A DNA stretch of 64,000 nt from Octopus vulgaris (lineage: Eukaryota). Both the position numbers and the translations under genes were made by a program. The stretch is taken from positions 23,808,001 through 23,872,000 of the forward strand of contig OX597832.1 in the NCBI GenBank assembly GCA_951406725.2, given 5' to 3'. Position 1 is the first letter of the stretch. Every line of letters starts with the position of its first letter. Positions 975 through 64,000 of this stretch are shown piece after piece. Below the pieces are notes generated by a model. That model saw nothing but the letters and a program-made list of their open reading frames with translations. It made no database searches and was not told the origin of the DNA.

Positions 975-1160
975 TTATATACTGAAATTCACAGAAAAAC
1001 AAGACGGAGATACGTGTATGAACCACAAGCAGTTGTATTAGTTTGCCGCTCGGGAAAATGAGACAGCCTTATGTTTCGAGCCTACGCTCTTCAACAGAAA
1101 AGAATAAGAGAAAATAAACAGAGAGAATAAAAAGACGTGTTGATTTAGCGGTCAAATATA
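975..1160 (-). mobile_element. Diverged copy of the 59373-59572 hammerhead-bearing element
   Basis: Shares tttcgagcctacgctcttc and colinear flanks. Its minus-strand motif is TTT-CTGTTGA-A-GAGC(GTAG)GCTC-GAAA-CA-TA-AGG. Confidence 0.65.

Positions 1161-8610: not shown

Positions 8611-8652
<42 letters not shown>

Positions 8653-9123: not shown

Positions 9124-9152
<29 letters not shown>
8200..9152 (+). repeat. (TATG)n microsatellite tracts, inverted relative to 7296-8005
   Basis: Direct inspection. Two tracts separated by ~90 bp of unique sequence. Confidence 0.95.
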
Positions 9153-9154
<2 letters not shown>

Positions 9155-9373: not shown

Positions 9374-9445
<72 letters not shown>

Positions 9446-9447
9446 CG

Positions 9448-9504
<57 letters not shown>

Positions 9505-10837
9505 GCATACAAAATAGACAGCTTTATTTTGAGATTACTAGTGTTAACAATACTCTCAAAAAATACAGACAGGAGTTGTAGTGCTCCAAATTAGCTATAT
9601 TTCACTTCTTAATTTGAACAAAGGCAATGCCAGCGGAAACTAGAGGAAGATGATTAAGATCTGTACTCAAAGACCAAATAGATACATATGTTCGTATATT
9701 CTTCTACATTAACAAAACGGATATAAAGATATAAAATATATATATAAATAGATATAAGTCGGTGTTATACACAAAACACGGTGAATTTACATTTTAAAAG
9801 TTATAAAATATTGGTATAATTAAAAATTTGGGATGATGAAACATTAAAAGGACGTATTAAAAGCCTCCGAAAAATAATGCAAAAATGTAAAAATTTAGAG
9901 TTCCATCTACGGACCGTTTCAGAGACGGGCCAAGTAATATGATATATTTCATATTATCAAAACTGACACTCCCCTCACCAGGATGTTTTTTACACTCACT
10001 ATACAAAAACAGATACAAAAATGCTAATATACAATTACATACCAGCCATTTGTAATCTGTTACATACATACAGAAAATTTTCTGGCTATGTACATATGTA
10101 TGCAAGCACCTATACGATTATTTACATACACTCTGTAGTGTTTTTTAGTGCGTTTATTTTGCCATTACATACCAATCTCAGGTTCCATTTATATATCACA
10201 TTGACCAATACTCTGTGGCTTTTCCCTTCAAGCTTATCGTCTGCCATTCATTTCCTCTCTTCCTCTCTTCTTTCATTTTGACTTTCTCACACCCCTCTCT
10301 CCCTACCTCTCTCTCTCACACACACACAACCTCTCTCACACCACCTCCCTCGCCACTCATCTGCCATACCACCACCATTCTTTATATCCAATTACTGCAT
10401 ATCATCTCTCATTTACCGACTGCAGTCCTACTCATCTCAGGCTTCCACACTCAATTCTCCGCTGAAGAACAAAAGTCCGAAACGTTACACTTTTCATTGA
10501 TCACCCGAACCAAATTTATCTACGTTTCTACATTCAACGAATTCTTTTTACTGCAATCATTTGTCCTCTCTCTATCTCTCTATCCCTCTCTCTTTCTTTC
10601 TCATTCTCTCTTTCTCTCTTTTTCTCTCTCTTTCTCTTTCACTCTCTTTCTCTTTCTCTCTCTCTCTCTCGCTTTCTCTCTCCCTCTATCTGTCTACGTA
10701 TCTACCTATCTATCATTCTATATGTCTATCTTTATCTCTCTCTCTCTCTCTCCCTCTCTCTCTCGCTTCCTCTCTCCTTCTATCTGTCTATGTATCCATC
10801 TAGCTATCAATCTATCTATCACTCTATATGTTTATTT

Positions 10838-10918
<81 letters not shown>

Positions 10919-11159
10919 CCTATCTACCTATCTATCTATCTATCTATCTGTGGTGCATGTTTTCTTAAAAAGAGAAACTAGTAAGTTATCTCGCCACCCA
11001 ATATTTATTCACAAATAAATCCATATATCACTCAAATCATTTTCGGTTGTCAGTTCCAGTAAAGAATCGTCCTGAGCTGTCACTGCGCTGCAAAGATAGG
11101 CTTCACACATCTCAAGATTGCTTACAGCTTGTAAGCATCCTTGTGTGTACATGTATATG

Positions 11160-11273
<114 letters not shown>

Positions 11274-11445
11274 TATATATATACATACATATATACATAT
11301 ATATACATATATATATATATATACACATATATATAAATATATATATACATATTTATATACATATTTATATACATGTATATATGTATGTATATATATATAT
11401 ATATACATATATATGTATAAATATATATATATGCATATACATACG

Positions 11446-11476
<31 letters not shown>

Positions 11477-11554
11477 GCAAATATGTGTGTACTTTATATA
11501 TGTGTGTACATTATATATGTGTGTGTGTGTATATACATACATAATATTCGTATA

Positions 11555-12803
11555 CAGGGTGCGTAAGATATATATAAGAACAGATTTATGTTTATAAAAA
11601 CACAGATATATAATAACAGATAATAACTGTATTTATCAAAACATGTTATGAGGATAAAAATAAACCTTCTTTTCTATAATGTTATGCAATAAGAGCAGCC
11701 TTCAGCTTCAACAACTGCTTCTATATGAGATCTAAATCATCTACATGTTCGATTCAAGTGGTCCTGGTTCATTTTGGACATTACTCTGACTATGGCAGCT
11801 TTCAAAGAATCTTTGGTGTTATGGGCATGTTCATTGACCTCTCTCTCTCTCAACAACGCTCCGCATGTAATAGTCCAATGAATTGAGATCTTGGGAATTA
11901 AGAGGCCAATTGTTAGAGGTTATGTGATCATAAATATTTTCAACCATCCATTCCTGTGTTACTAAAGCCATGTGTGATAGTGCAGAGTCTTACTGAAACA
12001 CATACGGCCTTCCATTGCATACACTGTCTATCCAGAGCTTGACAATTATTTCCAGGACCTCTAAGGCCTTGTGGAAAGAGGTAAGGAGGCATCACATGTC
12101 CTTCATTGCTGACAAACCTTAAAACCATGACAGTTGCAGGAAATTTTGTAAGCATAACACTTGGGACTTCAGAAAGGTCTTCACATTACAATCTATCATT
12201 TCTTCTGTTAACTTCTTGATTTTGGTCGAAGTTTTTCTCATTTCAGAAAAACCAAATCAAATCTTCTTCTACTGGATTTTTCAGTTTGTTTAAGAGCCTT
12301 TCAGATCTGATGTAGTGATTTTCTTTTGTTTTTTCGGACAAACTGACCTTTCCTCGTCATATAAAACATATTTGATGTCTTCGTGGACAACATTTCTGAC
12401 TGTTCCTTCTGACACATGGAGATCTTTTTCAATTGACTTCATGGAGTTTCTAGGATTGAAATCAATGGCCTGTTGAATTTGCTGAATAAATTTAGGTGTT
12501 CTGATGATTTCAGAGCGTTTAGAATGCTTTTTATGCTTTGATACTGGTGATACGTTTCCATCTTCAGTCTCTAACTCCTTACAAATTTTGTAGACGAAAG
12601 ATCTTGCAACATTTAAAAATCCAGATATTTCTAAATCGCTATGCTCAGCCTTTATAACCACAATAAGAGCATACATTTTCACTTCCTGAGTAAGCTGAGG
12701 GTCTGCCATTATTATTTTCTGAAACAAAGATTATACAGAGTTAGCAAAAAATGCAGCTGTGACCCATTAAATTGTTACGTCCTCAAATACCATACGCACC
12801 CTG
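11555..12803 (-). mobile_element. Decayed Tc1/mariner (maT/DD37D-like) DNA transposon
   Basis: TA-flanked TIRs CAGGGTGCGTA / TACGCACCCTG. Frameshifted transposase: HTH region (ORF 12290-12727), TKFPATVMVL..VSNEGHVMPP, and a WP.NS.DLN.LDY-like motif. Confidence 0.88.
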
Positions 12804-13016
12804 TATAAGGGAGAAGACATTACTATAATGATGGAATATTTAAATGATAATATATAGGCGCAGGAGTGGCTGTGCGATAAGTAGCTTGCTTACCAACTAC
12901 ATGGTTTGGGGTTCAGTCCCGCTGTGTGGCACCTTGGGCAAGTGTCTTCGACCAAAGCCTTGTGAGTGGATTTAGTAGACGGAAACTGAAAGAAGCCCAT
13001 CGTATATGGTCTGTGT

Positions 13017-13052
<36 letters not shown>

Positions 13053-13309
13053 GTGTGTCTGTGTCTGTTCCCCAACATCGCTTGACAACCGATGCTGGTG
13101 TGTTTACGTCCCCGTAACTTAGCGGTTCGGCAAAAGAGACCAATAGAATAAGTACTAGGCTTAAAAAAGAATAAGTCCTGGGATCGATTTGTTCGACTAA
13201 AGGCGGTACTCCAGCATGGCCGCAGTCAAATGTCTGAAACAATTAAAAGAATAAAAGAATATATACCATGCATATATTTTAATGCGAATATTACGCATAA
13301 TATATTTGG

Positions 13310-13372
<63 letters not shown>

Positions 13373-13767
13373 TGTATGTATGTATGTATGTATGTGATAA
13401 AACATACAGGAAAGATCGAAATTGCTGCGACATGTGTCTTGCAGAGAAATTTTACATAATTGCATTATTCAATTTCAAATATACTTACATAATTCAATTC
13501 TCTCAGAACTTATACTGAATTATTTTAGAAAAGTAGTAGGAACGAATTTTCAATTTCTTTCGATAAATCTTTTATTTCAGAGAATTTATGACGGCCTTCC
13601 ATGTCGGTTCTTCTTCCTTTTGCGTTCAAATTTCATTTAGGTCACCCTTCGACTTTTGCCGCCACTAGAGCTTGAGATAATGATCTCTAAGCTTGAAATT
13701 TTGACATATAACTATACATACATACATAAATATATTCATATATATATAGATATGTATATATATATAC

Positions 13768-13798
<31 letters not shown>

Positions 13799-14226
13799 CA
13801 TTTATATATTTATATATATATATAAACATACACACACACACATATATATATACATTTATATATATATATATATATTATATATATATATAAAATAATTTAA
13901 AAGAGATATAGACAGTACATAACATAGGACAAAGCCATCTGAATATAGGGACAGGGCAGGGTGGTGGGGGTGTTATATTTAGCCCCAGGCGAACATCGAC
14001 GTCATAGACACCGTATATACACACATATATATATATTTATATATATATATATATATATAAACATACACACACACACACATATATTGGATATATGTATGCA
14101 TGCAGGTATATTGCAACACCGAACAATATATATTGGTGTGTTCGAGTGTCTACGTAAATAAATATAGATGTTATATGTATATATAAAGCTTTTATTTTAA
14201 TATATTCATATATATATATATATACC

Positions 14227-14257
<31 letters not shown>

Positions 14258-14307
14258 GTATATAGATATATAGATATATAGATATATATGTATATAGATA
14301 CACACAC

Positions 14308-14417
<110 letters not shown>

Positions 14418-14983
14418 TCTGATCTACAATGTAATGAAACTACGTACTATAAACACATTGATAAATATATTCACAAATAAATACAACTCTGGTGCTTCGT
14501 AGTCTCAACCTTTTCTCGCCGCGATACGAAATTTCAATATTAAAATTATAAATAAAAGAATGGAATAATGATGAATGTCTTCGAATGTAGAAGAATTAGA
14601 TTGTTGCCATTCCAATTTACATTATCACTTATGTCTAGAATATTCTAATGTTTTCTTCATATCTATTGTTCAAATATTCTCAAAGGATCTAGATTTATTT
14701 AGTATATATATATATATTTATTTATTTATACACACACACACAATATATATATATATTTATTTATTTATTTATATATATATTTTATTTATTTATTTATACA
14801 CACATATATGTATATATACATACATATACATATATATATATATATGCATATATATATGTATATATATATATAGAGAGAGAGAGGGGAGAGAGAGAGAGAG
14901 ACGTATATATTTATACACATATAAACATATACTCATATGTGTACATAGGCATGTATAGATATATACATATATATATATATGTA

Positions 14984-15052
<69 letters not shown>

Positions 15053-15121
15053 CATACATATATGCATATATAAATATGTATTTGTATACATATATTTACA
15101 CATAAGTGATGTAAATGACAG

Positions 15122-15179
<58 letters not shown>

Positions 15180-15183
15180 TATA

Positions 15184-15310
<127 letters not shown>

Positions 15311-16180
15311 AATATACACATACATACACAAATTCCATTATTATTTGGCAAAAGTATGAATATTTATAAATCAGTGTCTGAAAGTTTACACGAATCATAT
15401 AGATATGTATCTCTATTTTTTTTTTCTTCTATTTTTTTTTCTGAGTGAACTGATATGGAATTGCTTAAATATGTAAATAGTATGTCTTAGAGCGTTTGCA
15501 TTAAATCTTCGTAAATATTCTACCAAAAAAGAACAGAAAATCCATACTTAAATTCTTTCGAAACTTCAGCCAAAATTTTATTAGTAAATTAGAAAAAAGA
15601 AAATTTTAATTTTTTTCTTTTTTTTTCAATACAATAAACCTCGTTTTTCTTACACTATTCATGTCATTTCTCTATTATGGTTTCTTTATTGTCATTAATA
15701 AAGATTTTGCCAGCTTGCCGCTAGCAGAATTCTAAGCAATCGCGGCAAAATGTTTCGTGATTTTTCGTCCGTCGCTACGTTCTGTGTTCAAATTCCACAG
15801 AGGACAACTTTCCCTTTCATCATTTCGGTGCCGATGAAATAAGTACCTGTAAAACACTAGGTTCGATGTAATCGACTGATCCCCGCCCATAAAAAATGTC
15901 AGGCCTTTGCCTTTGGTAGAAATGATTATTTTCTATTTCTTTATTGCCCACAAGGGGCTAAACACAGAGGGGACAAACAAGGACAGACAAACAGATTAAG
16001 TCGATTACATCGACCCCAGTGCGTAACTGGTACTTAATTTATCGACCCCGAAAGGATGAAAGGCAAAGTTGACCTCGGCGGAATTTGAACTCAGAACGTA
16101 ACGGCAGACGAAATAAGGTTACGCATTTCACCCGGCGTGCTAACGTCTCTGCCAGCTCGCCGCCTTGATTATTATTATTA

Positions 16181-17024
16181 CTAGCAGTATAACCCGGGCG
16201 TTGAGATTCCGGTTCGAATGTAAGGCAGGTTTGAAAGTGTTCCCAACAGTTATTAGTTGTAGTGGTAGAGTGTTTATGTCGAATAAGTACGTATGCATGT
16301 ATATATATGTATGTATGCCTGTATATATGTACAAAATCCACTGAAAAGGCTTTTGTTGGTCTGAGGCTACAACAGAAGACACAAGCCAAGTCACCACACA
16401 GTGGGACTGAACCCAGGACTATGTGTTTGGAACGTAGTTTGTTACCACACAGCCACACCTGCCCCTATGTATGTGTGTGTGTGCGTATGTGTGTATGGGT
16501 AGATATATTATGCACGTATATATGTGTATATATATGTGTACATATTACATGTACATCTATATATATATATACATCTACACATAAAATACAAAATACAAAG
16601 TTATATCTTGATGTCGCTAGTGATAACAATACTCAAAATATATAACAGACTGGAATTGTAGGCCCGTCTCTTGCAATTTCGAAGGGCTGCAGCGAAATTC
16701 ATATTTGGATTTTTTTCTATCGAAGGCATTTTAACAAAAATGCTTCCGTAAAGACGGTGAAAATATTGTCAATCTCCCCAAACAGGGACACAATTCAATT
16801 TTTAAACAATAACCAAAGACCCTTCTCTGAAAGGAGGAGGGTTACGGTTTACAATTATTTAACAAATGCAACACAACAACGTTTCCATGACGAGGAACCA
16901 ACAAACGTGATTACAATAGTCAAACAGTAATAATAATAACAACAAACCTTTTTAATTTATCCCCATTTATGTGAAACCACTTATTCAAGTTCAAGTCATT
17001 GATGCAATTTTATACGAATTGATA

Positions 17025-17079
<55 letters not shown>

Positions 17080-17484
17080 ATAAGGGTGAAAAATTGAATA
17101 TTAATTTGATTAATATGAATTGAAAACCAGTGGTGTAGCATATAAGACCATAGCGGATCTTCTTCTAGCAAAATGGATGACCATTGTTAATGGTTCATCC
17201 CTGTTATATAATACTTTCACTTTAATAGTGAAAGTGTCTGCATTACAAAAGAAAGATGTTTTTGTTTCACTTTTAACACGTAATACTGAAATAGTGGAGA
17301 AGATATGATATTGCTGTGGGGTCGCCCAAGGGAAAAAGTTAAGATTTTTTGCCGATTTCACTCCCCGGACTTTAAGTAAGGCATGTGTAAAATTTGAATG
17401 AAATTGGTTGTGTAGTTCTCAAGTTTTAGGGAAACACACAGACAGACAGACAGACACACATTCTCAGTTTTATATATATAGAGA
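16181..17484 (-). mobile_element. Helitron-like termini enclosing mixed repeats
   Basis: CTAGCAGTAT..CCCGGGCGTTG end at 16181 and a (CAGA)n..TTTATATATATAGAGA|T end at 17484, both similar to 19406-19800. Whether the two ends belong to one element is uncertain. Confidence 0.5.
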
Positions 17485-17603
17485 TTATTGCCAGAGTAGG
17501 AGGTGTGTTTTTGGAGTACTGTAAGTTTATTTTTAATTCACTTTCTTTAAAAGATTCTATGCTGTATTTCATTGGTTGAAGAAGCCCGTCGTATATATGT
17601 ATG

Positions 17604-17644
<41 letters not shown>

Positions 17645-17871
17645 TTGTGTGTATGTTTGCCCCCCACCCAACATCGCTTGACAACCGATGCTGGTGTGTT
17701 TACGTCCCCGTAACTTAGCGGTTCGGCAAAAGAGACCGATAGAATAAGTACTAGGCTTACAAAGAATAAGTCCAGGGGTCGATGTGCTCGACTAAAGGCG
17801 CTGCTCCAGCACGGCCACAACCAAATGACTGAAACAAGTAAAAGAGTAAAAGAGTAATAATAATAATAATA

Positions 17872-17946
<75 letters not shown>

Positions 17947-18115
17947 CAACGGTGGACATCGTAATTTCTTATCCTACTTTGCGGCTCGATAATTGTATAG
18001 ATTGTGCCTAATTAAGAAATAATTAGCAATCAATTGGCTTCACTCTTCACATCAGTGCAAATAGTAATTGCTTTGCTATTTACTCTTGATCAAACGTATA
18101 TATGTGTACATACAT

Positions 18116-18182
<67 letters not shown>

Positions 18183-18216
18183 TATATTATATATATATAT
18201 ATATAGAAATTATAAC

Positions 18217-18327
18217 AAAAGCAGCAGAAATTTAACAAAGCGTCGGAGTTTCACGTTCCCGTTCCGGACGTCGAACGGGAACGTGAAACTCCGAGTAAGA
18301 GCTTTTGTTAGAATTTCTGCTGCTTTT
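18217..18327. repeat. ~110-bp palindrome
   Basis: AAAAGCAGCAGAAATT..TCGGAGTTTCACGTTCCCGTTC / GAACGGGAACGTGAAACTCCGA..AATTTCTGCTGCTTTT. The following AATAAA-containing tail recurs inverted at about 53170-53222. Confidence 0.88.
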
Positions 18328-18416
18328 AAATAAAGCATATTACTCTACCTCTGGTATTTGAGTACTCTTTTTTCCACCTTGTTTCACATTTATGTGTTTA
18401 CTCCGGTATATACATA

Positions 18417-18471
<55 letters not shown>

Positions 18472-18771
18472 AGGCGCAATGGCCCAGTGGTTAGGGCAGT
18501 CGTCTCGCGGTTGTAGGATCGCGGTTTCAATTCCCAGACCGGGCGTTGTGAGTGTTTATTGAGCAAAAGCACCTAAAGCTCCACGAGGCTCCGGCAGGGG
18601 GTGGGGGAGTGGCGATCCCTGCTGTACTCTTTCGCCACAACTTTCTCTCACTCTTTCTTCTCTTGTCCTGCTCGCTTAGCCACCGAGGTGGCGTCATTCG
18701 AAGGCTAAAACAATGTGGAGCGCATTGTGACAAGCGATGTGTAACAACATCTGATAGCCTGGTCGGTCACG

Positions 18772-18821
<50 letters not shown>

Positions 18822-18831
18822 CGCACGCACA

Positions 18832-18891
<60 letters not shown>

Positions 18892-19405
18892 ACGCTTCAC
18901 GAATTTGCGTATCATCCTGGCGCAGGAACGATGCTTATCCACTCCGTATATTTCCAATTTTAGTAGACATACAGTTATACGACAATGTTACTTGTTCGCA
19001 TCGGTATTAACATATTTTTAAAGAATAAGTCTCATGAATAGCCTTAAACAATCTTCTGCAATTCCGTTTGTTTTTGGGGGCTTTTTTTTTCTTTCTATTT
19101 TCCTAAAAATAAAAACACCAGATGTTCGATTCTCAAAGCTGTCACACAAATATGAATATTCTATCAAGTTCCAATCAATAATCTGAATTGTCCAAAGACT
19201 GAAATAAATTCTTCATACTTAATAACATAACAACATCATATTCAACTTATTTGAAAAATCCTGTGGTGCGTGGCCTTGTGGTTGGGGCAGTAGTTCTCAA
19301 CCATTTTGTCTTAGGATCTTTTTGATTCGTGTTTTTCTCTGCTGGATCTCCATAGCTATTCGATGTGCATAAAAATACACATCCTACTTCGATTTTATAA
19401 CTAAA

Positions 19406-19800
19406 CTAGCAGTATCGCCCGGCGTTGCTCGGGATTATTTCGATCCTTTAGAATTGGAATTTTTGAAAAGTAAAAATTTTGCATTGTGTAGCTTGTTATT
19501 CTCTTTAAGTGAACATTTTTCTGGTTGAAATACACCGAAAAATGGCGATACAGCATTTTTTAAAAATCGTTAAAAATAGGGATTTTCATAGAAAAAAAAG
19601 CACCTTTTTGATATAAATAATTTTTGGTGTTAACATGGTCCGATTTGAATTTTTTCTTCTACGGAAGGAAGAGCAAGCCTTCTTCTATCATACTCTCAAT
19701 TTTGGTCAACTTGCGCCGCAGGGTCTCGGAGGAGATAGTGTTAGTTGAAAGCTACCAAACCTGCCATACACAGACAACTTCAGCTTTATATAGAGAGAGA
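19406..19800 (-). mobile_element. Non-autonomous Helitron-like element
   Basis: Minus strand begins A|TC and ends with the hairpin CCCGAGCAACGCCGGG then CTAG|T. No TSD. Nested in a CAGT..ACTG-bounded hAT-like MITE (about 19288-19972). Confidence 0.7.
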
Positions 19801-20869
19801 TATTAGGAATTGTTTAAGAGAATTTAAATAATTTGTGTATTGTGGAAGTGTAAGTCATTTATTACTCATAAATTTTAACGACAAAATCTTATACGGACCC
19901 CCAAGGACCAAATGGACACTCAAGGACGATATGGACTCCCAAAGACCATATGGGCCCGCATGTGAGCCACTGGATAAAAGCTTCGAAATCTGCCTCACAA
20001 TATATATTCTAGTTCTATAATCTGAGTTCGAATCGTGCAGAGTCTTTTATTCTTTTGTTCTTTTACTTGTTTCAGTCATTTTACTGTGGCCATACTGGAG
20101 CACCGCCTTTAGTCGACCTACTCGACACCGGGACTTATTCTTTGTAAACCTAGCACTTATTTTATCGGTGTCTTTTGCCCAACACAGAGAGGACAAACAA
20201 GGACAGACAAACGGATTAAGTCGATTATATCGACCCCAGTGCGTAACTGGTACTTATTTAATCGACCCCGAAAGGATGAAAGGCAAAGTCGACCTCAGCG
20301 GAATTTGAACTCAAAGCATTTCGCCCGGCGTGCTAACGTTTCTGCCAACTCCCCGCCTTAAGGGACGCTCATAATTCAAGAGATCCGTGAGGGTGTTGTG
20401 AAGGCGTGTGGCCTAGCGGTTAGATTGTTGTATCCACGGTCGCAAGATCGTGGTTTCGATTCCCGTACAGGGCGGTGCGTTGTGTTCTTGGACATAACAC
20501 TTCATTTCATTTCGCTGCATTCCGCTCAGCTGTAAAATGGTGTCCCGTTCCCGTTCAGGGCTAAATATTGTGATGTCGGTCACTTATATGCCATGGAAGC
20601 TAGGAAATCGGTTCTTTGAGTCTTGGACCCGAGACAGTCCTTATTTACTGGCGCTCGCTCAACTTACAAGAAATAGCAGCCGGATCTCCTGAAATGATCA
20701 CAGACATAGTTATGTAGTCAGAAGGTTATTTCACTATCACATCATTCCGGGTTCGATCTTGTTGCGTGGAAGCTTGGAAAAGCGTCTTCCACTATAGCCA
20801 CGAACTGACCAAAGTCTTAGAAGCGAAATTTCATTGTTGCTGATATTGCTGCTGCTGCTACTGCTGCTA

Positions 20870-21250
20870 CTGATGTTGATGTTGATGTTGAGCGAAGCGG
20901 TCTTCTGTAGTGAGAGAAGTCCGCAACATGGTCCTTTTGCTATTCGTAAGACCCGCAGAAGAGAAAGCAGGTCAACCCCCCGACACCGAGAGCATCGACA
21001 GATGGATGAAAGCGCATCCAGGCTCAGCGGTTGCGTAGGAAGTCGGGGACAAGAAACAGGAAGAAAGAGTGAGAGAAAGTTGGAGCGAAAGAGTACAGCA
21101 GGGGTCGCCACCACATCCCCTGCCGGAGCCTCGTGGAGCTTTAGGGCGTTTTCGCTCAATAAACACACACAACGCCCGGTCTGGGAATCGAAACCGCGAT
21201 CCTCTGACCGCGAGTCCGCTGCCCTAACCATTGGGCCATTGCGCCTCCAC
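20870..21250 (-). mobile_element. tRNA-derived SINE family C (GGAGGCGCAATGGCCCAGTGGTTAGG head), representative copy
   Basis: Clear A box (TGGCCCA.TGG) and B box (GGTTTCGATTCC). Related heads at about 18469-18775(+), 29855-30122(-), 31530-31833(-), 36660-36905(-), 1740-2035, 20400-20640 and 26826-27045. Confidence 0.82.
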
Positions 21251-21384
21251 TGCTGTTTTTGTTGTTGTTGTTTAGTCTAACTTTAATGGAGCAGACACTT
21301 AAGTTAAGTGGAAAGCTTGCGGGCCTCGAAATCCCACTTTTTAAGCAAGCGTTTTCCTGTTTAATTCCATCTGTCTCTTTATTA

Positions 21385-21754
21385 TTTTTTTCTCTCCATC
21401 CTACTTGCTGTCTCCTTTCATCTCTCCCCATCTATCGCCATCTCTCTCTCTCTCTTTCCCGTTTTTTTTTCTTTCTATCTCTTCCCATCACCATCTCACC
21501 CTTCGGTATCTCTCTTTTCCTATTTCCCTCGCCATTTCTCTTCGTATCTCTCATCCAACCTCTCACCGTCTCTTTCTCCCCATCTCTCATAATTTCTCTC
21601 TTTCTCTCTCTCTCTCTCACCCTCTTCCCTTCTCTCTCTCTCGCACACTCTTTTCCCTTCTCTCTCTCTCACTCTCTTCCCTCCTCTCTCTCGCTCACTC
21701 TCTTTCTTTCTCTCTCTCTCTCGCTCTCTTTCTTTCTCTCTCTCGCTCTCTTTC

Positions 21755-21798
<44 letters not shown>

Positions 21799-22300
21799 TT
21801 TCGCTCCATCTGTCTCTTCATCTCTCTTTTCATCTCGCTCCCCATTTTTTCTCTTTCCCCTCATCTCTTTCCTTATCTCTCTCTCTCCACATCTCTCTTT
21901 CCACTTCTCCCTCATTCTCTCTCTCTTTCCTTCTCTCTCTCTCTCTCTGCCGTTCTTTCACTTTATTTCTATCATACTTCATATCTTTCTCCGTCTCTCT
22001 CTCCCCATCTCTTATCTCTTTGTCTCTGTCTTTCTCCCACATCTCTCCCCTTATCTCCCTCTCTGCATCTCTCTTTATATCTTTCCCCTTCTTTCTCTCC
22101 CTTTCTCTCTCTCTCATCCTTTATATCCTTCTCCACCAATTCCCACCTCCTTCTTTCTCTCCCTTTCTCTCTCTCCCTTTCTCTCCTTTATTCTCTCTCT
22201 CTCTCTCATCCTTCATATCCTTCTCCTCCAATTCCCACCCTCTTCTTTCTCACCCTTTCTCCTTCCTCCTCTTTTTTCTCCTCTTTACCATTTCCTACTT
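21385..22300 (+). repeat. Polypyrimidine (CT)n-rich tract
   Basis: About 900 bp, almost entirely C/T. Confidence 0.95.
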
Positions 22301-24115
22301 TAAATAGCACAATCAAAGAAACAATGCCAATATTTTTTCCATTTTTTTCAAATTTTATTCTTTCTTCCTTTTTTTTCTCCGAATAATTCCTAATTAAACA
22401 ATTTCCAATTCGACTTCCAACAATACAAAACTATTAAAACATTCTTTCACAAAATACGTTTTTAGTTAAGGCGGCGAGTTGGCAGAGTCGTTAGCACGCC
22501 GGGCGAAATGCGTTGCCGTATTTCGTCTGCCGCAACGTTCTGAGTTCAAATTCCGCCGAGGTCGACTTTGCCTTTCATCCTTTCGGGGTCGATTAAATAA
22601 GTACCAGTTACGAACTGGGGTCGATGTATTCAACTTAATCCGTTTGTCTGTCCTTGTTTGTCCCCTCCGTGTTTAGCCCCTTGTGGGTAATAAAGAAATA
22701 GGTATTTCGTCTGCCGCTACATTCTGAGTTCAAATTCCGCCGATGTCGACTTTGCCTTTCATCCTTTCGGGGTCGATATATTAAGTACCAGTTACGCACT
22801 GGGATCTCTTCCTCCTTCTTTCCTCCTCCTCCTCCTCTTTCTCTCCCCTCACTCCTTCTCTCCTCCTCATTCTCTCTCTGCTACTCTCTCTTCCTCCTTC
22901 TTTCCTCCTCCTCTTCTTTCTCTCCCCTCACTCATTCTCTCCTCCTCATTCTCTCTCTACTCCTCTCTCTTCCTCCTTCTTTCTTCCTCCTCCTCCTCTC
23001 CTCTCACTCCTTCTCTCCTCCTCTCTCCCCCTCACTCTTTCTCTCCTTTCCTCACCGGTAAGCGATCAGTAAAGATACTAAATTCCAACATTTAAAAAAA
23101 AAAAAAAGAAAAAGAAGACTTAACAATTATCCATTCTAACAAACACAGAATCTCTTCACATGTTTAGTTCCAAAGACCTTAAGCATCTTGAAGAAATTTC
23201 ACACTTCGTAAACTGAATAAAAGAAAGAAAAACAGGTAAAAATTCCAAAAGTCTCACTCCAAAATTCCTGCAGTAAAATTGCTTATTTTACAAACATAAA
23301 AATAATTTAAACTGTCAGACATTTTCTATTCAAAATGGTATTTTTTAACACAAAATCTGAACATAGTTATTTATAGCTGTATCCGCTTCAAGTTCAACGG
23401 TTAAAAACGAAGTGTAAAAATAGTTTGTTTTTAAAATGATTTTTTTTTTCTAGCGTGTATGGAACCGCTTAAGTTAAATAATTCAGCGTGCTTTGGGGCA
23501 ACCAATTGAAGAATTCTAAAGAAATTTGGTATAAAATTGGATGAAATTTTAGCAAAAAAACATATAATTATAGAAGGTATGAGATCAACGGAATTATAGA
23601 ATTCTCACGGGAAAGACAAAATGTTTTGAAAATTATCAGATTTAAAACAGGAACCGAAACTTTCAGACTTGTTTCTTTTCAACGAACTGAACGCTCATAA
23701 GTTGGATGAAAATGGCTAGTATGTATGTATGTAGGTAGGTAGGTAGGTAGGTAGGTAGGTATGTATGTATGTATGTATGTATGTATGTATGTAGGTAGGT
23801 AGGTAGGTAGGTAGGTAGGTAGGTAGGTAGGTAGGTAGGTAGATAGATAGATAGATAAGTTTCTTTATTGGACACACAGGGCTGCAAACAGATGGGACAA
23901 GTTACAAGGTAGAGCTTTTCTTTTGGGGGATGAAAAAAACAAAAAACAAAAGAAACAAAAAAAGGGGTGGCGTAGGTTTTCGATCAAGAGGGATCGTAAA
24001 AGGGAAGAAAAGAACAAAAAAAATAATAAATAAATAAAAGAAAAAAAGAAAAAAAAGAAAAAGAAAAAAAAAGAAGAAAAGGAAAAGGAACAAAAGAAAA
24101 GAGAAATGAAAAAAG

Positions 24116-49660: not shown

Positions 49661-51294
49661 CTGGAAAGGAAAGCAAATTTCTTTCAGACAAGGGAATTAG
49701 AAAGTAAAGGACAAGGTCATGCAAAACCCCAGTTTACCTATATACAACAATAAAATGGGCAATTAACAGTATATATGGAACCTGTATAGGTTTATAAACA
49801 GGCCTAATTAAACTATTTCTCTAAAGACTTTAAAATAAAAACCTTAATTGATTTTTTAAATCTTGCTGGATTCTCATCAGAAGTGTCTACAACAATATGA
49901 CTAATTCCAGAGAAACCAGCTGAGTGCACACTCGACACACAGAGTGCACGCTCAGCACACAGGGTGCACGCTCAGCACACAGTGCACACTCAACACATTG
50001 GGTGCACACTCGACACATTGGGTGCATACTCACTTTGTTTATATATTGTATATACTCAACATATGATATGCAAATTAGTAGCTCCAGTTTCTTGTAGCTA
50101 CTGAAATTGTTAACATTTTAATATCAGGGGCCTGTCAACAGGGATCTCAACCCACAGAATGATCACTGTATGATATCCTATATGTAACCTATATACTAGA
50201 GATATAAACAGGGCTGGCTGATATATAAACAGGGTTGCTTTGGAAACCACGTGGTTTCAGTCTCATTGTGCAGCAGTATCTTCTATAACCCCGGGCCAAC
50301 CAATACCGTGCGAGTGAATTAGGAGATGGAAACTGAATGATTAACTCTGTTCAAGAAAGTCAAGGGTAGACAACTCTCGGAAAGTGAACTGATTTAAAAA
50401 AATAGACTTCAGCAGGGAGTGACCTCGAGAAGTATAGCAATAAATGGAAATATTTGGGGATTATAAGATCATCCCAGTATAGTGAACTCTTGTGTAGTTT
50501 CAAAGAGGATCATCATAATCCCCATTTCATGTCCATTTTCCATGCTGGCATGGATGGATTGGATGGTTTGCTAGCCGGCCAGAGAGCTTCACCAAGCTCC
50601 AATTGTCTGTTTTAGTATGGTTTCTACAGCTGGATGCCCTTCCTAACACGACCCACTTTACAGAATGGACTGGGTGCTCCATGCATGGGACCAGCACGGG
50701 GATTCCATGCATGGGACCAGCATGTGATCAGGCTACTATTTCTAGCCAACTGACCAATCACAGGTGCTATCATTAGTCTTGCCTAATGACACATGATATG
50801 ACAAAATTGGGGGCGGGGCATAGTTGATTAAACTGACCCCAGTAGGTCACTATTGCTTATTTTAATGAAGCTGGAACATTGTAGAGGAGATTCAAGTACA
50901 GAATGTGTAAAAGGGACAAACTAAATACCACAAGGTATTTTTTTGTGTCTGCTCCTCAGGCATGGCTAGTCACAGATGAGGCTGTGTGGTAAGATGGTAA
51001 GAAGTTTGCTTCCCAATCACATGGTCCCTGGTTCTGTTCCACTGTGTGGAATCCAAGACAAGTGCCCAAGATGCCACACAGGAATCCTAGGAACCTTATG
51101 AGTGGATATGAAGGAAGGAAACTGAAGGAAGCCTGATGTGCGTGTTACTCTCTCCTTGCTTTGACAAGGCATGATAGTCGTAAACGAGAGCCACCATCAT
51201 GCAAGCAGTGTCTATTTTTAATCTTTCTTGAAAACATGTCTGGCCAGGAAGAAATGTTTTCTTACTTACCAACAAAGCACACGGAGTTCTGTTT

Positions 51295-51885
51295 TTGATT
51301 CGACGGTCATTCAGAATGCTCACAGCAGCCATATTCCTACTGCTATATGTCACGCTGGTGAGACCCATATTGGAGTACGGGATTCAAGCCTCTTCTCCTT
51401 ATCTCCTCAAAGACATACATCATCTCAAAAGAGTCAAGAAGCTGGCTACCCGCATGGTTCTTGGTCTCAAGCATTTGTCTTATGAAGAAAGGCTAAAGAC
51501 GCTCGACCTTTATTTTCTAGAAAAACGACAACGCCGTGGTGATCTCATTCTTGCTCACAACATAAGTGGAAAGTGTAACCTCTCGAAAGAGCTGTTCTTC
51601 ACTCCTGCTCCAGAGCGTCGGCTGCGGGGTCACTCCGAAAGGCTCTATCTGCGACAATTTCATCTCAATTGAAGGAGAGGGGCTTTTTCCGTCCGGGTTG
51701 TGGATCTGTGGAATAAGCTGCCGGACGAGATAGTGAAGATGCTGACGACCGCTCGGTTCAAAGTCTCTCTTGACCAGAAATGGCCTGAACTCTTTGCATG
51801 AACACCCTCACTGTACATAACTCCATGTCCCCCTACATGGCCTTGCTTTTTGCTTTTTGAGCCAAAAAATTAACTTAACTAACTT
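51295..51885 (+). mobile_element. CR1-clade LINE 3' fragment
   Basis: Reads LYVTLVRPILEYG...LSYEERLKTLDL..LEKR.RRGDLI, the typical CR1 ORF2 C-terminus. Short 3' UTR and (TAAC)n-like tail. Confidence 0.85.
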
Positions 51886-57034: not shown

Positions 57035-57380
57035 TACGGAGATGTACTTGCATAGCAAGTGATCTGATCTGAGATCGTGTGCTGGAACGAAAACAATTGC
57101 AGCATGGAAGGTGTCTGTAAGCCATTTAAGAAACACACAAAAGCCGTTCGATTCACTTCAACATTTAAGTTTAATTTGTCAAAATATTTTCGTCGCTTTA
57201 AGACCGCGACCTGTTCACTGACAAAAATCCGTGCTGCATCTGAGAGAGTAACAGTTAGTTTGTTATATATATGTACGTGTGTATGTATGTATACACGCAT
57301 GCATGTACGTACGTCTGTGTGTATGCATGCATGTATGTATGTATGTACGCATGTGTATATGTATGTATGTATGTATGTGT
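57035..57380 (-). mobile_element. Second short hammerhead-bearing retroelement with terminal microsatellite
   Basis: Flanked by a 12-bp direct repeat GATCTTATCCTT (57023-57034, 57381-57392). It sits in the end of another repeat whose uninterrupted inverted copy is at about 48076-48190. Confidence 0.65.
57175..57225 (-). ncRNA. Minimal type I hammerhead ribozyme-like motif (G3-C8 swapped core)
   Basis: Minus strand TTTGTCA-GTGAACA-G-GTCGC(GGTCTTAAA)GCGAC-GAAA-ATAT-TT-TGACAAA: 7-bp stem I, 5-bp stem II, palindromic stem III. Confidence 0.65.
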
Positions 57381-58116: not shown

Positions 58117-58908
58117 ATGCAGTGAAACTGAACCCAGAATGCTATTTTATTGAAGCTGGAAACAAACCTCGCAAACCGTTACTCAGAGTTCCACACAAGA
58201 CAGTGACGAGTACTCAGAGAGCAACACAACAGCTTACAAATATTTTACAAATACACATACGCATACACACACACACACATATATAAATATATATACACAC
58301 ACACACACATGCACACACACACACACACACAGCACAAATATGCACAACCACACACGAAGGACGACCAAGGCTGGAAAGCCTTCGCTCACACATCGACTTT
58401 ATCACCCCGACTGACCTGGAGCTAAACAGCAACAGATATGGCATGACTCAAGAGGAAATCAATCAATAAATAAAAACTGCTCAGATTAGAAACGTTAAAC
58501 CACTCACTGCCTAACTGCTTTGTTTCACTTTTGGGTGACCAATAAATGTTTTATCAGCCTCTCTTTTGCACACTCTCTCTTTCTCTCTCTCTCTCTATTG
58601 CAGTTCACAAGAAGCAAATATGTTTGAGGCCTTTCAACAACACGTGGTTTTTTTCTTTATCTTGTTGTTTTTACATATATACATAATCATTTGGCTAAGT
58701 CATTGTACTGGGGCATTACTAATTCATGAAGCTATTAACTTTATCTTGTGTGTTGGTATCTCCATTTACTGCTGTAGATCAATATAACTCTTAATAATAC
58801 TCGCCACGAGTAAAATGATTTCACACACACACACACACTCGTGTGGATATACATGCATATATATATACAGGGTGGGTAGAAAGTAACTAGGTATTAGATT
58901 GCTTATAG

Positions 58909-59127
58909 CAGTGCTTTTCAACCTTTTTGCTGGAGCGGAACCCCAAGGAAACATTCCACTGGCTCGAGGAACCCCTGTGCAATAATTTAATTGTCTTATG
59001 CACGTGTATCTGCACAGGAGAATTAAAAATTACTGTCGATTTTAGCATTTTTGTAACTTCTTGCGGAACCCCTGGACTGTACTGGCGGAACCCTAATGTT
59101 CCGCGGAACCCTGGTTGAAAACCACTG
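58909..59127. mobile_element. hAT-type MITE, copy 1
   Basis: CAGTG..TTTCAACC / GGTTGAAAACCACTG TIRs. 8-bp TSD GCTTATAG/GCTTATAA. Closely similar to 61152-61370. Confidence 0.85.
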
Positions 59128-59372
59128 GCTTATAAAATTTTTAGTATCAGTGAAGTTATGACGAAAAACGTTTTTTTAAAACAGGCAACACTAATGGGGA
59201 TTTTTTTTTATTTTTCTATTGTCATATTTCTTATTTCCTGTTTCCCAGATGCCTGGTCACTCAACTGTTCTGGACCAAGCTAAGATAGTAGCACGCTATG
59301 AAGTGTGGAATTCCATTGTTTTGGTTCAGAGATGGTCGCATGAATGGAAAAATAAGCATGCAATATTATGTC

Positions 59373-59572
59373 GGGAGAGTTTACGAAAAAAACAAAAGAC
59401 GAAGACAGGTGGTGTACAAAACAAACAGATGTATTAGTATAACGCTCAGGAATAGAAAAAGTCTTTTACGTTTCGAGCCTACGCTCTTCTACAGAAAGGG
59501 ACACAGAATAAACAAGGAGAGAAAAAGATGCGTGTAGTGGCTAATGATCTATCATGGTGACTGATAGAGCGA
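59373..59572 (-). mobile_element. 200-bp non-coding retroelement with minimal hammerhead-like motif (Penelope-like/retrozyme-like)
   Basis: Flanked by a 12-bp direct repeat CAATATTATGTC (59361-59372, 59573-59584). Removing it rejoins the interrupted transposase frame (..KHAILC|PETIK..). A related copy lies at about 975-1160. Confidence 0.75.
59463..59498 (-). ncRNA. Minimal type I hammerhead ribozyme-like motif (A6U core variant)
   Basis: Minus strand CTTT-CTGTAGA-A-GAGC(GTAG)GCTC-GAAA-CG-TA-AAAG: stem I, core, stem II, GAAA, palindromic stem III, GUA site. Confidence 0.6.
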
Positions 59573-61151
59573 CAATATTATGTCCAGAGACAATAAAAAG
59601 TAGTTATGCAAAGCTGAAGACCACGGGCTCTGTGAATGATGCAAGAGGTGGCCGTCCAACCACATCCCGACCTGTGGAGAAAGTGACAACAGTGCAGGAA
59701 ATGTCTAATCACAGCCCGCAAAAGATCAACACGTGAAGCAGCTCATGGAAACCCCATTACATGCAGGAGCTAAAACCTGAAGATTGTGACCACAGAAGTC
59801 TAGATCTCACTCCATGTGATTTTTACCTGTGGGGTTACACAAAAGAACAGGTGACCCAAGACAAAACCTTGCACACTGGAGGACTTGGAGACATGGATCG
59901 AGGAGGTTCTCAATGAAATCTCAGATGATGTCCTTCAGAAGGTTGTTCATTCCACCCCTGGTCGTTTGAGGAAACTTGCTGATGCCACCGGTGCTTGCAT
60001 TGAAATATGAAGATTTACTTTCATTTTCCCCATGTAATAAAGAACATGTATCATTTGTTTCAATAAATTTCTAAAAGGAATATGGATTTTATTAAGTTTT
60101 AATGCCTACTTACTTTCACCCACCCTGTGTGTGTGTGTATTATATATACACACATACACATCGAGAGAGCCAGAGTGTGACCGAGAGAGAGAGAGAGAGA
60201 GCCAGAGTGTGATCGAGTGAGAGAGAAAGCCAGAGTGTGACCGAGAGAGAGAGAGAGCCAGAGTGTAAGCAAGTGAAAGCCTCAGAGAGAATGCCTCTGA
60301 CTGTAAACCAGCCAAGATAAGCCAAGGGTTAAACAGCAATAGAAACAAAGTCGCCTGGATGCCACAATATGTGATATTTCCAATATTAACATCCAAACTT
60401 GAAGAAAACAAACAAACCAACATCTCTCCACCCACTCTTGTTTTGTTTTGTTTATTTTCGGTCAAGCTGAAAGTTTCTAATTTGAAATCAAATTTCAATA
60501 TGACTAAATCTGCTTCCAATTTACTGCAGTTGCTAATATTCATCAATAGCCAAGAGCAAGGAGCAGGGGTGGGTAGGGAGAGGAAGGGGCTGTGAATTAA
60601 GCCAAAAAAAAAAAAAAAAAAAAAAAAAGCATGGAGATTAAAATCTGCAGTATTGATTAGGATTACTAATATTTCTTGATGTTTTTATTGGCTGGCGGCC
60701 CGAAACACCTAAGTACGGAACTGTGAATGATCAAGAAGCCAAAAATGGTAAATAATCTGCAAATTTATTTGTCGGCAGTGGTGGGGAGGGCGAGGTGGGA
60801 GAAGGAGAAGGAGAATGAGTTTGAGAATGGATAATAATGATAGTTATAACTCTAAATTCTAATTTTAAATCTTGTATGCATGATCAACCGTAAATTTTTG
60901 TAGCATAGGAAAAAATACTTCGGATACTTTTAAAAGCAACAATGGTTTGGCGCCGATATATTTATTGAAAGCAACAGTTTTGTCACACTGCCAACAAGAT
61001 GGTCAACAGCTCATAGTTAATCCTATCATAGGCATCCTACTGTATGCACTATATCCATCCATGGCCAGCTAATGTAATTCTCAAATGGCTCAGTTCATTT
61101 AGCCAGAAATAAATATCAAAGGAAAATACAGCTCACCGCGAATATCTACAG

Positions 61152-61370: not shown

Positions 61371-62482
61371 ATCTACAGTAATGCCTCACCTATCACAGGT
61401 GTTACATTCCAAAACCCTGCCACAATAGGTGAAAATCCGCAAAGTAGAATGAACTGTATGCTTTTATTTTTATAATTTGTATGTATTTACTCTGTGTCAT
61501 ATGCCCACGAGCGTATGGCATAGTGGGTCTATCAGCCGAAACATTGTGTTAACAACATACAAGACGAGAACAAATATCCGCCAATTGTAAATAGTATAAA
61601 TAATGTACATAATTTATTCTGTTTCATGTTCAGACTGGCCAGATCTGGCCTCTTGCACCTCCCCTGCAATGTCATTCTGAAATTTAAGTTACCTCATGTA
61701 AAATCTCAAAGCTACAAAATAACGCATTATTAATTCAAAATGATTTGAATAAATAAAAATTACATTCGATAGAATAATTGGACGGCCTAAAGGATTAAAT
61801 TCAGCTTATTCGGTCAAGTTTTCAAAGATGTATTTTCCCAACACACAGCAAGTGAGATTACCTGATAGAGGAGGGGGCGTGGGAGTGCGGACGTAACCCT
61901 GGGTCAATGAAAGCATGTAGGCAACAGAATGTCTATTCACATGTTGACTTAGGCCAGCTTGCAAAACATGTGTGTTGTGTCTTGAGGGCACACAAAATCA
62001 TAACCATTTTATTTCTGGTCACGTACACATTCTCTCATGAACTTGGACTCATTCCAACATGAAAAAAATATTCCAACAATAATAAATATGTTGTTTACAA
62101 TGGTTGTAACAGTTTAACGAATAAAAACAACCAGAAGACGGTGTGTCTGTATGCATGTGTAACTAATTAGGTGGCTGGCTTCATTAAGTCTTTAACATTC
62201 AGACTACTTTGCCAAATGTAATGGCTGTTTAGTCACATTTTTTGTAGCTATGAGATTTTGAGGATATGATTATTTTTAGATTAACATTGTAAGGTAAGTG
62301 TGAATGGCTAGAACTGGTCAGCTTCCATAAAAGAGAGGGAGAATATTTGAGTTGGACATGGCTGGATTCAACGGTAAAGGGTGAAGGTTTAACTGAAAAG
62401 TTAGGAAGTCATTCTTTCATATAAACAGGCCTATATTATAAGCATGTAGGAGAGAGGCAGTCAGGCAGAGAAAGGAAAGAGT

Positions 62483-63590
62483 GGGCAGGCAGAGACGGAG
62501 ACGGAGACGGGCGGGCAGGCAGGCAGAGACGGAGACAGTGAAGGGCGGGCAGGCAGACAGAGACAGTGAAGGGCAGGCAGGCAGACAGAGACGGAGAAGG
62601 GCGGGCAGGCAGGCAGAGACGGAAAAGGGCAGGTGGGCAGACAGAGACGGAGAAGGGCAGGCGGGCAGGCAGAGACGGAGAGGGGCGGGCAGGCAGGCAG
62701 AGACGGAGAGGGGCGGGCAGGCAGGCAGAGACGGAGAGGGGCGGGCAGGCAGGCAGAGACGGAGAAGGGCGGGCAGGCAGGCAGAGACGGAGAGGGGCGG
62801 GCAGGCAGGCAGAGACGGAGAGGGGCGGGCAGGCAGGCAGAGACGGAGAGGGGCGGGCAGGCAGGCAGAGACGGAGAAGGGCGGGCAGGCAGGCAGAGAC
62901 GGAGAGGGGCGGGCAGGCAGGCAGAGACGGAGAGGGGCGGGCAGGCAGGCAGAAACGGAGAGGGGCGGGCAGGCAGGCAGAGACGGAGAGGGGCGGGCAG
63001 GCAGGCAGAGACGGAGAGAGGCGGGCAGGCAGGCAGAGACGGAGAGGGGCGGGCAGACAGGCAGAGACGGAGAGGGGCGGGCAGGCAGGCAGAGACGGAG
63101 AGGGGCGGGCAGGCAGGCAGAGACGGAGAGGGGCGGGCAGGCAGGCAGAGACGGAGAGGGGCGGGCAGGCAGGCAGAGACGGAGAGAGGCGGGCAGGCAG
63201 GCAGAGACAGAGAGAGGCAGGCAGGCAGGCAGAGACAGAGAGAGGCAGGCAGGCAGGCAGAGACAGAGAGAGGCAGGCAGGCAGGCAGAGACGGAGAGGG
63301 GCGGGCAGGCAGGCAGAGACGGAGAGGGGCGGGCAGGCAGGCAGAGACGGAGAGGGGCGGGCAGGCAGGCAGAGACGGAGAGGGGCGGGCAGGCAGGCAG
63401 AGACGGAGAGGGGCAGGCAGGCAGGCAGAGACGGAGAGAGGCGGGCAGGCAGGCAGAGACAGAGAGAGGCAGGCAGGCAGGCAGAGACAGAGAGAGGCGG
63501 GCAGGCAGAGAGAATGAGAGGCGGGCAGGCAGTGAGAGAAGCGGAAAGGCAGGCAGAGAGAGAGAGAGAGAGGCGGGCAGACAGAGATGG
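62483..63590 (+). repeat. GC-rich 28-bp minisatellite (AGACGGAGAGGGGCGGGCAGGCAGGCAG)n
   Basis: About 1.1 kb of tandem 28-mers. The 28-aa periodicity of the overlapping ORFs reflects three units. Confidence 0.95.
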
Positions 63591-64000
63591 ACGAGGAGAG
63601 TGAGGGCAGAGGGAAAACAGAGAAGTTGGTGGTAGCCTGATGGTGTAGGAAAGAAAGTGATGAGAGTGGCATGTTTGGGGCATTAAACAACCTTCACTCT
63701 CCGCATGGATTAACTAACAAAAGACAAAAAAAAATGTTACATGACCTTTTAATTTTTTTTTTTGTTTTTCATGGCGTTGCTTGTTTATAAAATCCTGGGT
63801 CATTAACATAAGTGATTTATTACAAGTCACATAATACATTTCAGACAATTAAGTAATTCTAGGAAAGGCCTCGTCAACAAACAGAAGCAGCAGCAGCAGC
63901 AGCCAGTCACAGAATCAATAACAATGTCACAAAGAGAGAGGAGGAGGAGGAGAGAGAGCAGATGGGGAGAGAGTGTGAGGGAGAGTATGAGAGAGAGCAA

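What the first reader, a model, noticed from the sequence alone, without database searches (positions are those of the whole stretch)
59361..59584. Second, unrelated 200-bp mobile unit with a minimal hammerhead (A6U variant), caught inserted in a transposase
Seen: a 200-bp insert (59373-59572) with a perfect 12-bp TSD CAATATTATGTC splits a mariner transposase frame, so its boundaries are well defined. It has no TIRs, no Pol III boxes that I can see and no poly(A) tail. It contains CTTT-CTGTAGA-A-GAGC(GTAG)GCTC-GAAA-CG-TA-AAAG. A diverged copy at about 975-1160 keeps stem II, GAAA and the same U at core position 6. Inference: this is a PLE-mobilised, retrozyme-like element. Its shared architecture with the 57 kb element (1-nt insertion before stem II, palindromic stem III, 12-bp TSD) despite unrelated sequence points to a class of such elements.
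Basis: partly seen in the sequence, partly recalled or inferred. Interest (0 to 1): 0.8.

Follow-up and report, generated by a model that had tools for sequence, protein, structure and literature searches.

The report
Penelope-type retrotransposon end, variant hammerhead
A 200-base insertion with a clean 12-base target duplication is one copy of a very abundant repeat that is likely the shortened tail end of a Penelope-type retrotransposon, and its hammerhead-ribozyme-like motif carries a core change predicted to weaken or abolish self-cutting.

Summary
The insert (59373-59572), its 12-bp duplication, the minus-strand hammerhead-like motif with U at core position 6 and the second copy are real. 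Public runs show a huge family: contig depth 127-650 times the mariner flank in 3 DNA runs. Copies share one sharp end (59373, abutting (TA)n); the other end is not shared, the last ~10 nt are nearly private and form a hairpin, and no abundant head-to-tail joint was listed. So 200 bp is not the unit and it is not a retrozyme monomer. It fits a 5'-truncated 3' end (solo pLTR-like) of a Penelope-type family: predicted cut 94 nt from the fixed end, (TA)n targets, short TSD. The 'shared architecture' with the 57-kb element is the published consensus of animal Penelope hammerheads, so it defines no new class. What is unusual: U6 appears to be the family's majority state while N7 varies; published mutagenesis predicts low activity, and a strict CUGANGA search would miss it. 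No autonomous partner could be found (no genome held); cleavage untested.

The parts
59361..59372 (.). left copy of 12-bp target site duplication
59373..59572 (-). 200-bp insertion, one copy of a very abundant repeat family, antisense to the mariner frame
59373..59373 (-). fixed family end (3' end in hammerhead sense); (TA)n lies beyond it in other copies, none here
   Evidence: table 7: loose ends before 59373 in 222, 168, 235 and 44 contigs of X1, X2, X4, X9
59463..59498 (-). minimal type I hammerhead-like motif: stem I 4 bp, core with U6 (59491) and N7 (59490), extra base 59487, stem II 4 bp with GUAG loop, GAAA, palindromic ACGU stem III, predicted cut after 59467
   Evidence: comparison with PMC4209133 consensus
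59548..59568 (-). 5'-terminal hairpin (7-bp arms 59548-59554 and 59562-59568); the outer arm region is nearly private to this copy
59573..59584 (.). right copy of 12-bp target site duplication
58868..60127 (+). host: decayed, internally deleted Tc1/mariner-like element with terminal inverted repeats
976..1150 (-). second, diverged copy (73%), U6 and U7, abutting a TA/CT microsatellite at the family's fixed end

Best explanation
The 200-bp insert is one copy of a very abundant repeat family and is likely the 5'-truncated 3' end (solo pseudo-LTR) of a Penelope-type retroelement, which a Penelope reverse transcriptase/GIY-YIG endonuclease would have copied into an A+T-rich site of a dead mariner, leaving the 12-bp duplication. 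Shown: insert, TSD, one shared end with (TA)n beyond it, an unshared other end, hammerhead-like motif 94 nt inside the shared end. Inferred mechanism: the protein binds an RNA carrying the hammerhead-like fold, nicks A+T-rich DNA (usually (TA)n), starts reverse transcription at a fixed site about 94 nt downstream of the predicted cut (making end 59373), stops early, and joins the 5' side through a short fold-back (hairpin at 59548-59568). Whether the master copy is an autonomous PLE or a non-coding derivative is undecided. The motif is predicted to be a weak or dead ribozyme because of U6 (my odds: about 0.55 dead and kept as a fold or by descent, 0.3 cuts only with protein or as assisted dimer, 0.15 cuts as naked RNA dimer).
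For: Fixed end plus (TA)n loose ends in 4 of 4 runs; X1 depth falls 1.6M, 0.62M, 0.13M, 872 over the last four bins, with zero cover at 59571 in X1 and X9. Motif matches every element of the published animal PLE minimal-hammerhead consensus except position 6. Cut-to-end distance 94 nt versus 85-92 nt in the anole PLE (RT starts at ORF +111-118, cut at +26; PMC11167929) and 30-153 nt in 22 of 26 Hydra-clade rows. (TA)n preference is listed for most Hydra-clade PLEs and for octopus PLEs. Rotifer pLTRs are about 190-220 bp, have 8-10 bp TSDs and 5' palindromes (PMC3846280). PLEs are 5'-truncated on insertion (PMC8969392). Core 25 of 28 identical between the two window copies versus 95 of 137 elsewhere, p=0.02. 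The motif bins are the depth peak in 4 of 4 runs. Among the 40 variant rows shown, N7 varies (13-34%) and position 6 is not listed.
Against: No RT or GIY-YIG frame is linked to either copy; no genome was held, so no partner was found. The core fails the CUGANGA rule, and the descriptor was relaxed after seeing it. The conservation test rests on two copies. The second copy has lost stem III and most of stem I. 64 variant rows, 50 joints and 1131 loose-end rows were not shown, so 'U6 is the majority' relies on the shown rows being the highest-share ones (lowest shown maximum 24%). Part of the depth fall toward 59572 is subfamily divergence (loose ends at 59499 and 59508), not truncation. (TA)n could be a tail rather than a target. 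The whole insert folds no better than shuffles (z 0.47). No Rfam hammerhead hit.
Confidence: 0.72

Rival explanations
1. It is the 3' end of an ordinary LINE or LINE-dependent SINE with a (TA)n tail, and the hammerhead likeness is a chance reading of the stem-loop that the LINE protein recognises.
For: Fixed 3' end, variable 5' end, microsatellite beyond the end and a 12-bp TSD all fit target-primed LINE/SINE insertion too. The core fails at position 6. SINEs and LINEs are the largest repeat classes in octopus (PMC13282606), if the host is an octopus (recalled, not tested).
Against: 0 of 40 shuffles gave a motif with the palindromic stem III; every other consensus feature matches, with the free N7 position being the variable one. 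This copy has no (TA)n at all between end and TSD, as expected for a target rather than a tail. The stem-loop lies about 100 nt from the end.
Confidence: 0.15
2. One reading: a self-contained 200-bp retrozyme-like monomer that spreads through a circular RNA made by hammerhead cleavage of tandem transcripts.
For: Size, 39.5% G+C (counted), a type I motif and a TSD longer than 4 bp fit the animal non-LTR retrozymes (PMC7229834); solo monomers are common in such families (bioRxiv 10.64898/2026.07.22.740005). One back-joint 59496 to 59375 exists at single-locus depth in X1, and the family is well represented in a run guessed to be RNA.
Against: The 59572 end is not shared; the shared end abuts (TA)n, not another head; all 15 joints shown have depth at most 166 against millions inside the element, and none shows in X9. 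No tandem array at the locus. Retrozymes are described with canonical motifs; minimal ones belong to PLEs.
Confidence: 0.08
3. A MITE or other DNA-transposon piece.
For: It sits inside a mariner next to a MITE.
Against: No terminal inverted repeats; only one end is shared; 12-bp TSD.
Confidence: 0.02

Closest known systems
Minimal type I hammerheads of animal Penelope-like elements (Cervera and De la Pena 2014, PMC4209133)
   Same: U-rich 5' flank, 4-bp stem I, extra base between 9 and 10.1, G10.1-C11.1, GAAA, palindromic C-G stem III, UH cut site, AU-rich 3' flank; mostly found as single motifs of truncated PLEs.
   Different: U instead of A at core position 6; the consensus and the rows I saw have A6 (the variants in the main text are U3-A8 and stem changes).
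Poseidon PLE of the green anole, PAc (Frangieh 2024, PMC11167929)
   Same: Fixed reverse-transcription start 85-92 nt past the hammerhead cut (94 nt here); A+T-rich targets; cleavage not needed for insertion in vitro.
   Different: PAc has a linked ORF and shown protein-assisted cleavage; no ORF is shown here.
Hydra-clade and Neptune PLEs with (TA)n preference, incl. Hydra-1_Obim (Craig 2021, PMC8557442)
   Same: Hammerhead near the 3' end, (TA)n targets; octopus members exist.
   Different: Listed motifs have A6 and a 3-4 bp stem III; no motif of this family was found in the supplement's Naiad, Chlamys and Hydra consensus files.
Animal non-LTR retrozymes (Cervera 2020, PMC7229834; Li 2026 preprint)
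   Same: Non-coding, few hundred bp, type I motif, PLE-related, TSD over 4 bp.
   Different: No defined monomer, no tandem arrays seen, minimal and non-canonical core, circles not shown.
Natural A6C hammerhead of phage Bcep176 (PMC3088659, PMC7151607)
   Same: Natural change at core position 6.
   Different: C rather than U, single phage example, active but slow in Mg2+ and better in Mn2+; here U6 in a repeat of thousands of copies or more.

Membership tests
Hammerhead ribozyme (canonical core) | C3 U4 G5 A6 N7 G8 A9 core | tested here: not met
   U at position 6 in both window copies
Hammerhead ribozyme (canonical core) | G12 A13 A14, A15-U16 pair, H17 | tested here: met
Hammerhead ribozyme (canonical core) | Self-cleavage | not testable with these tools
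   only contigs were available; they cannot show RNA ends
Animal PLE minimal hammerhead | Extra base between 9 and 10.1; G10.1-C11.1; short stems I and II | tested here: met
   versus PMC4209133
Animal PLE minimal hammerhead | Palindromic 15.2-16.2 for dimer stem III | tested here: met
   met at 59468-59471; lost in the copy at 976-1150; the 4-bp duplex is weak, -1.7 kcal/mol
Penelope-like element | Single ORF with telomerase-like RT and GIY-YIG endonuclease | not testable with these tools
   none in the window; no genome held; no copies in the public collections
Penelope-like element | Fixed 3' end with 5' truncation | tested here: met
   tables 2, 3, 7; truncation versus subfamily divergence not fully separable
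Penelope-like element | Hammerhead near the 3' end of the pLTR | tested here: met
   94 nt; range 30-153 nt in 22 of 26 published rows
Penelope-like element | Partial tandems or inverted pLTR / 5' palindrome | tested here: inconclusive
   7-bp terminal hairpin, 0.2% of shuffles and 65 of 6604 window samples; one back-joint at single-locus depth
Non-LTR retrozyme | Head-to-tail tandem repeats with a motif in each unit | tested here: not met
   50 lesser joints were not shown
Non-LTR retrozyme | Defined monomer with both ends shared | tested here: not met
   59572 end unshared
Non-LTR retrozyme | Abundant circular RNA | not testable with these tools
   contigs only
tRNA-derived SINE | Pol III A and B boxes in the head | tested here: not met
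   no A box, no tRNA call; a head could lie upstream of what this copy keeps
MITE / TIR transposon | Terminal inverted repeats | tested here: not met

The most novel reading that the evidence does not exclude
One of the most abundant repeats of this genome is a non-coding, SINE-like parasite of Penelope elements that amplified to tens of thousands of copies with a hammerhead fixed for U6, invisible to CUGANGA searches: either a new protein-assisted catalytic core or a dead ribozyme kept as the fold that the Penelope protein recognises, giving a natural test of why Penelope elements carry hammerheads at all.
Probability: 0.25. Interest if true: 0.6.

Novelty: new variant of a known kind. Interest (0 to 1): 0.33.

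Why it matters
Why Penelope elements carry hammerheads is open: cleavage was dispensable for insertion in vitro (PMC11167929) and Naiads thrive without canonical motifs (PMC8557442). A very high-copy family that keeps the hammerhead scaffold but fixes a core change predicted to cripple it would be a ready natural experiment, and would show that descriptor searches miss whole families. It would also reclassify part of a repeat fraction probably filed as unclassified SINE. The insertion itself, in a dead mariner, has no evident consequence.

Tried and rejected
No own genome was held, so no genome-wide copy collection. Rfam: no hammerhead match among the 150 of 273 rows shown for the window nor at the locus at E up to 10. 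Pattern scans for other copies: viral contigs 0 and 0, prokaryote genomes 4 and 0, metagenomes 0 and 6; all 10 loci are short chance matches (at most 31 bp). The pattern had an A-run two bases shorter than the window copy and would not match it, so that negative is weak. Family motifs were absent from the full text library and from the Craig 2021 supplement. 'hammerhead' plus 'A6U' gave no relevant paper by title and abstract start; hammerhead plus octopus or cephalopod gave only Craig 2021 and unrelated papers. Lunse 2017 (the largest list of PLE hammerhead variants) and Albertin 2015 are not held; one supplement file of PMC4209133, the preprint's supplements and the Zenodo/Repbase/Dfam libraries could not be seen, so U6 or this family may be recorded there. 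Pfam gave no hit on two mariner pieces and one other frame; mariner identity rests on TIRs, Atlas look-alikes (HTH_48, DUF4817, DDE_3; leads only) and recalled motifs. An alternative core register was considered by eye and rejected because it destroys stem II. The X4 contig that appears to span the right junction looks like a mariner paralogue force-aligned to the insert end, and the X2 contig covers only 23 insert bases, so neither is counted as proof that the insertion is shared. The higher insert-to-mariner depth ratio in X9 (8,000-24,000 versus 127-650) is not counted as expression: RNA is a guess and low-copy words are filtered. Free cofolding of two motifs did not give the dimeric hammerhead, which energy models are not expected to find. 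A covariance model was not built from only two sequences.

Full report
Observation. The 12-mer at 59361-59372 recurs at 59573-59584 and nowhere else in the window; the insert is exactly 200 bp. Chance of such a repeat within 300 bp is about 4e-5. The empty site reads in one frame across the junction, and contigs skipping exactly 212 bases occur in X1 (1 contig), X2 (2) and X4 (2), not in X9; only 6 letters fit both sides, so these are probably other mariner copies rather than an empty allele (inference). The host spans 58868-60127 between inverted repeats, has a stop at 59734-59736 and frameshifts, and its pieces resemble HTH_48/DUF4817 and DDE_3 clusters in the Atlas (leads); Pfam itself gave no hit. 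Both TSD copies have T where most covering contigs have C (row 59576), so the mariner had likely decayed before the insertion.

Motif. On the minus strand, 59463-59498 reads stem I (4 bp), core with U6, one extra base, stem II (4 bp, tetraloop), GAAA, palindromic ACGU, cut after 59467. A descriptor relaxed post hoc at position 6 found 2 hits in the window; 40 block shuffles gave 0.125 hits each and none with a palindromic stem III. Rfam has no hit here. The second copy (995-1140, 73%, E 8e-20) keeps U6, stem II and GAAA, has U7 instead of A7, and has lost the palindrome and most of stem I. Core identity between the copies is 25 of 28 against 95 of 137 elsewhere (p=0.02; two copies, post hoc); the best 28-nt window is in the motif (27), the best outside 23. 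The whole insert folds no better than shuffles (z 0.47).

Family. 24 runs from 12 studies and 5 organism labels hold parts of the stretch; I laid 4 of them, all contigs. 29,530, 17,379, 26,296 and 5,211 records were laid over the 521-bp stretch. Peak depth in the insert is 127-650 times that of the mariner flank in the three DNA runs; depth is not copy number, but two copies in 64 kb give about 31,000 per Gb (95% interval 3,800-113,000; biased upward by selection). The left end is sharp and shared: loose ends before 59373 are (TA)n in 222, 168, 235 and 44 contigs. The right end is not: X1 depth runs 3.1M, 1.6M, 0.62M, 0.13M, 872 over 59492-59581, with no cover at 59571 in X1 and X9. Part of this fall is a second subfamily that diverges at 59499-59508 and resembles the window's second copy. 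The last ~10 nt form the outer arm of a 7-bp hairpin (59548-59554/59562-59568), found in 0.2% of shuffles and 65 of 6604 window samples. The 15 joints shown (50 hidden) have depth at most 166; one back-joint (59496 to 59375, with a short TA-rich linker) is at single-locus depth. The motif bins are the depth peak in all 4 runs. Of 104 variant rows 40 are shown; N7 (59490) varies at 13-34%, position 6 (59491) is not listed, and the lowest maximum share among shown rows is 24%, so A6 is likely below about a quarter of depth, if rows are kept by share (inference).

Mechanism. Shown: insertion with TSD, one fixed end, one unshared end, motif 94 nt inside the fixed end. Inferred: target-primed reverse transcription by a Penelope protein from a fixed internal start, usual target (TA)n, early stop, 5' fold-back join. 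That this copy has no (TA)n between end and TSD suggests target rather than tail. In the anole PLE reverse transcription starts 85-92 nt past the hammerhead cut, targets are A+T-rich, the ribozyme cuts only with protein, and cutting is not needed for insertion (PMC11167929; parts 1-2 of 4 read). In Hydra-clade PLEs the cut lies 30-153 nt from the end in 22 of 26 rows (dropped: one antisense duplicate, one 5'-placed motif, one gapped stem, and Penelope-2_NV, about 355 nt by the same arithmetic). Rotifer pLTRs are about 190-220 bp with 8-10 bp TSDs and 5' palindromes (PMC3846280, passages). PLEs are 5'-truncated on insertion (PMC8969392, passages). Activity: all single changes in the CUGA turn gave low activity except the C3-G8 swap (PMC9901934, passages); natural A6C is slow in Mg2+ and better in Mn2+ (PMC3088659, PMC7151607, passages); minimal PLE motifs are weak even with A6 (PMC4209133, parts 1-2 of 4). 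So U6 predicts little or no cutting by naked RNA.

Comparison. Retrozymes are tandem repeats with canonical motifs (PMC7229834, passages) and are already proposed as non-autonomous PLE derivatives (bioRxiv 10.64898/2026.07.22.740005, parts 1-3 of 5); this family fails the tandem and defined-monomer tests. The host is not given; the repeat landscape looks octopus-like (recalled, untested). PLEs make up 6.83% of the O. vulgaris assembly in 190 families and most recently active SINE families there are unclassified (PMC13282606, parts 1-2 of 3 and supplement search), so the family may already sit in a library I could not see. Octopus Naiad and Hydra consensuses (PMC8557442; passages and supplement parts 1-2 of 59 plus term searches) hold none of its motifs. 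I found no report of U6 or of this family in searches, but Lunse 2017 is not held. PMC6765202, PMC7943196 and PMC8967140 were seen as passages only.

Verdict. Real insertion, real motif, known kind of element end, with one unusual and apparently family-wide core change. Not filed as an active hammerhead (core test failed) nor as a retrozyme; likely a Penelope-type terminus, partner unproven. Interest 0.33.

Noticed in passing
window 57035-57380: Unrelated repeat with 12-bp TSD (57023, 57381) and a minus-strand hammerhead-like motif (57175-57225) whose C3-G8 pair is swapped to G3-C8, the one core change reported as tolerated; its microsatellite lies 5' of the motif, unlike the 59-kb family; single copy in the window; only a 22-nt A-rich likeness to the 59-kb insert.
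   Followed up: partly
window 58909-59127: hAT-like MITE (15-bp inverted repeats, 8-bp TSD with 7 of 8 matches) nested in the same mariner.
   Followed up: partly
window 1162-1399: Another repeat with a 14-bp TSD (1148, 1400) inserted right at the variable end of the second copy.
   Followed up: no
window 18881-18980 (-): Decayed U6 snRNA copy, 58.6 bits, above the Rfam gathering score.
   Followed up: no
window 51232-51672 (+): 146-aa open stretch resembling the C-terminal end of a LINE reverse transcriptase (recalled); no Pfam hit.
   Followed up: partly
window 59373-59572, run X9: Insert-to-mariner depth ratio is far higher in the run guessed to be RNA (8,000-24,000) than in DNA runs (127-650); may reflect transcription or a filter effect.
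   Followed up: no
window 62417-63713: Long GC-rich tandem repeat open in several frames.
   Followed up: no
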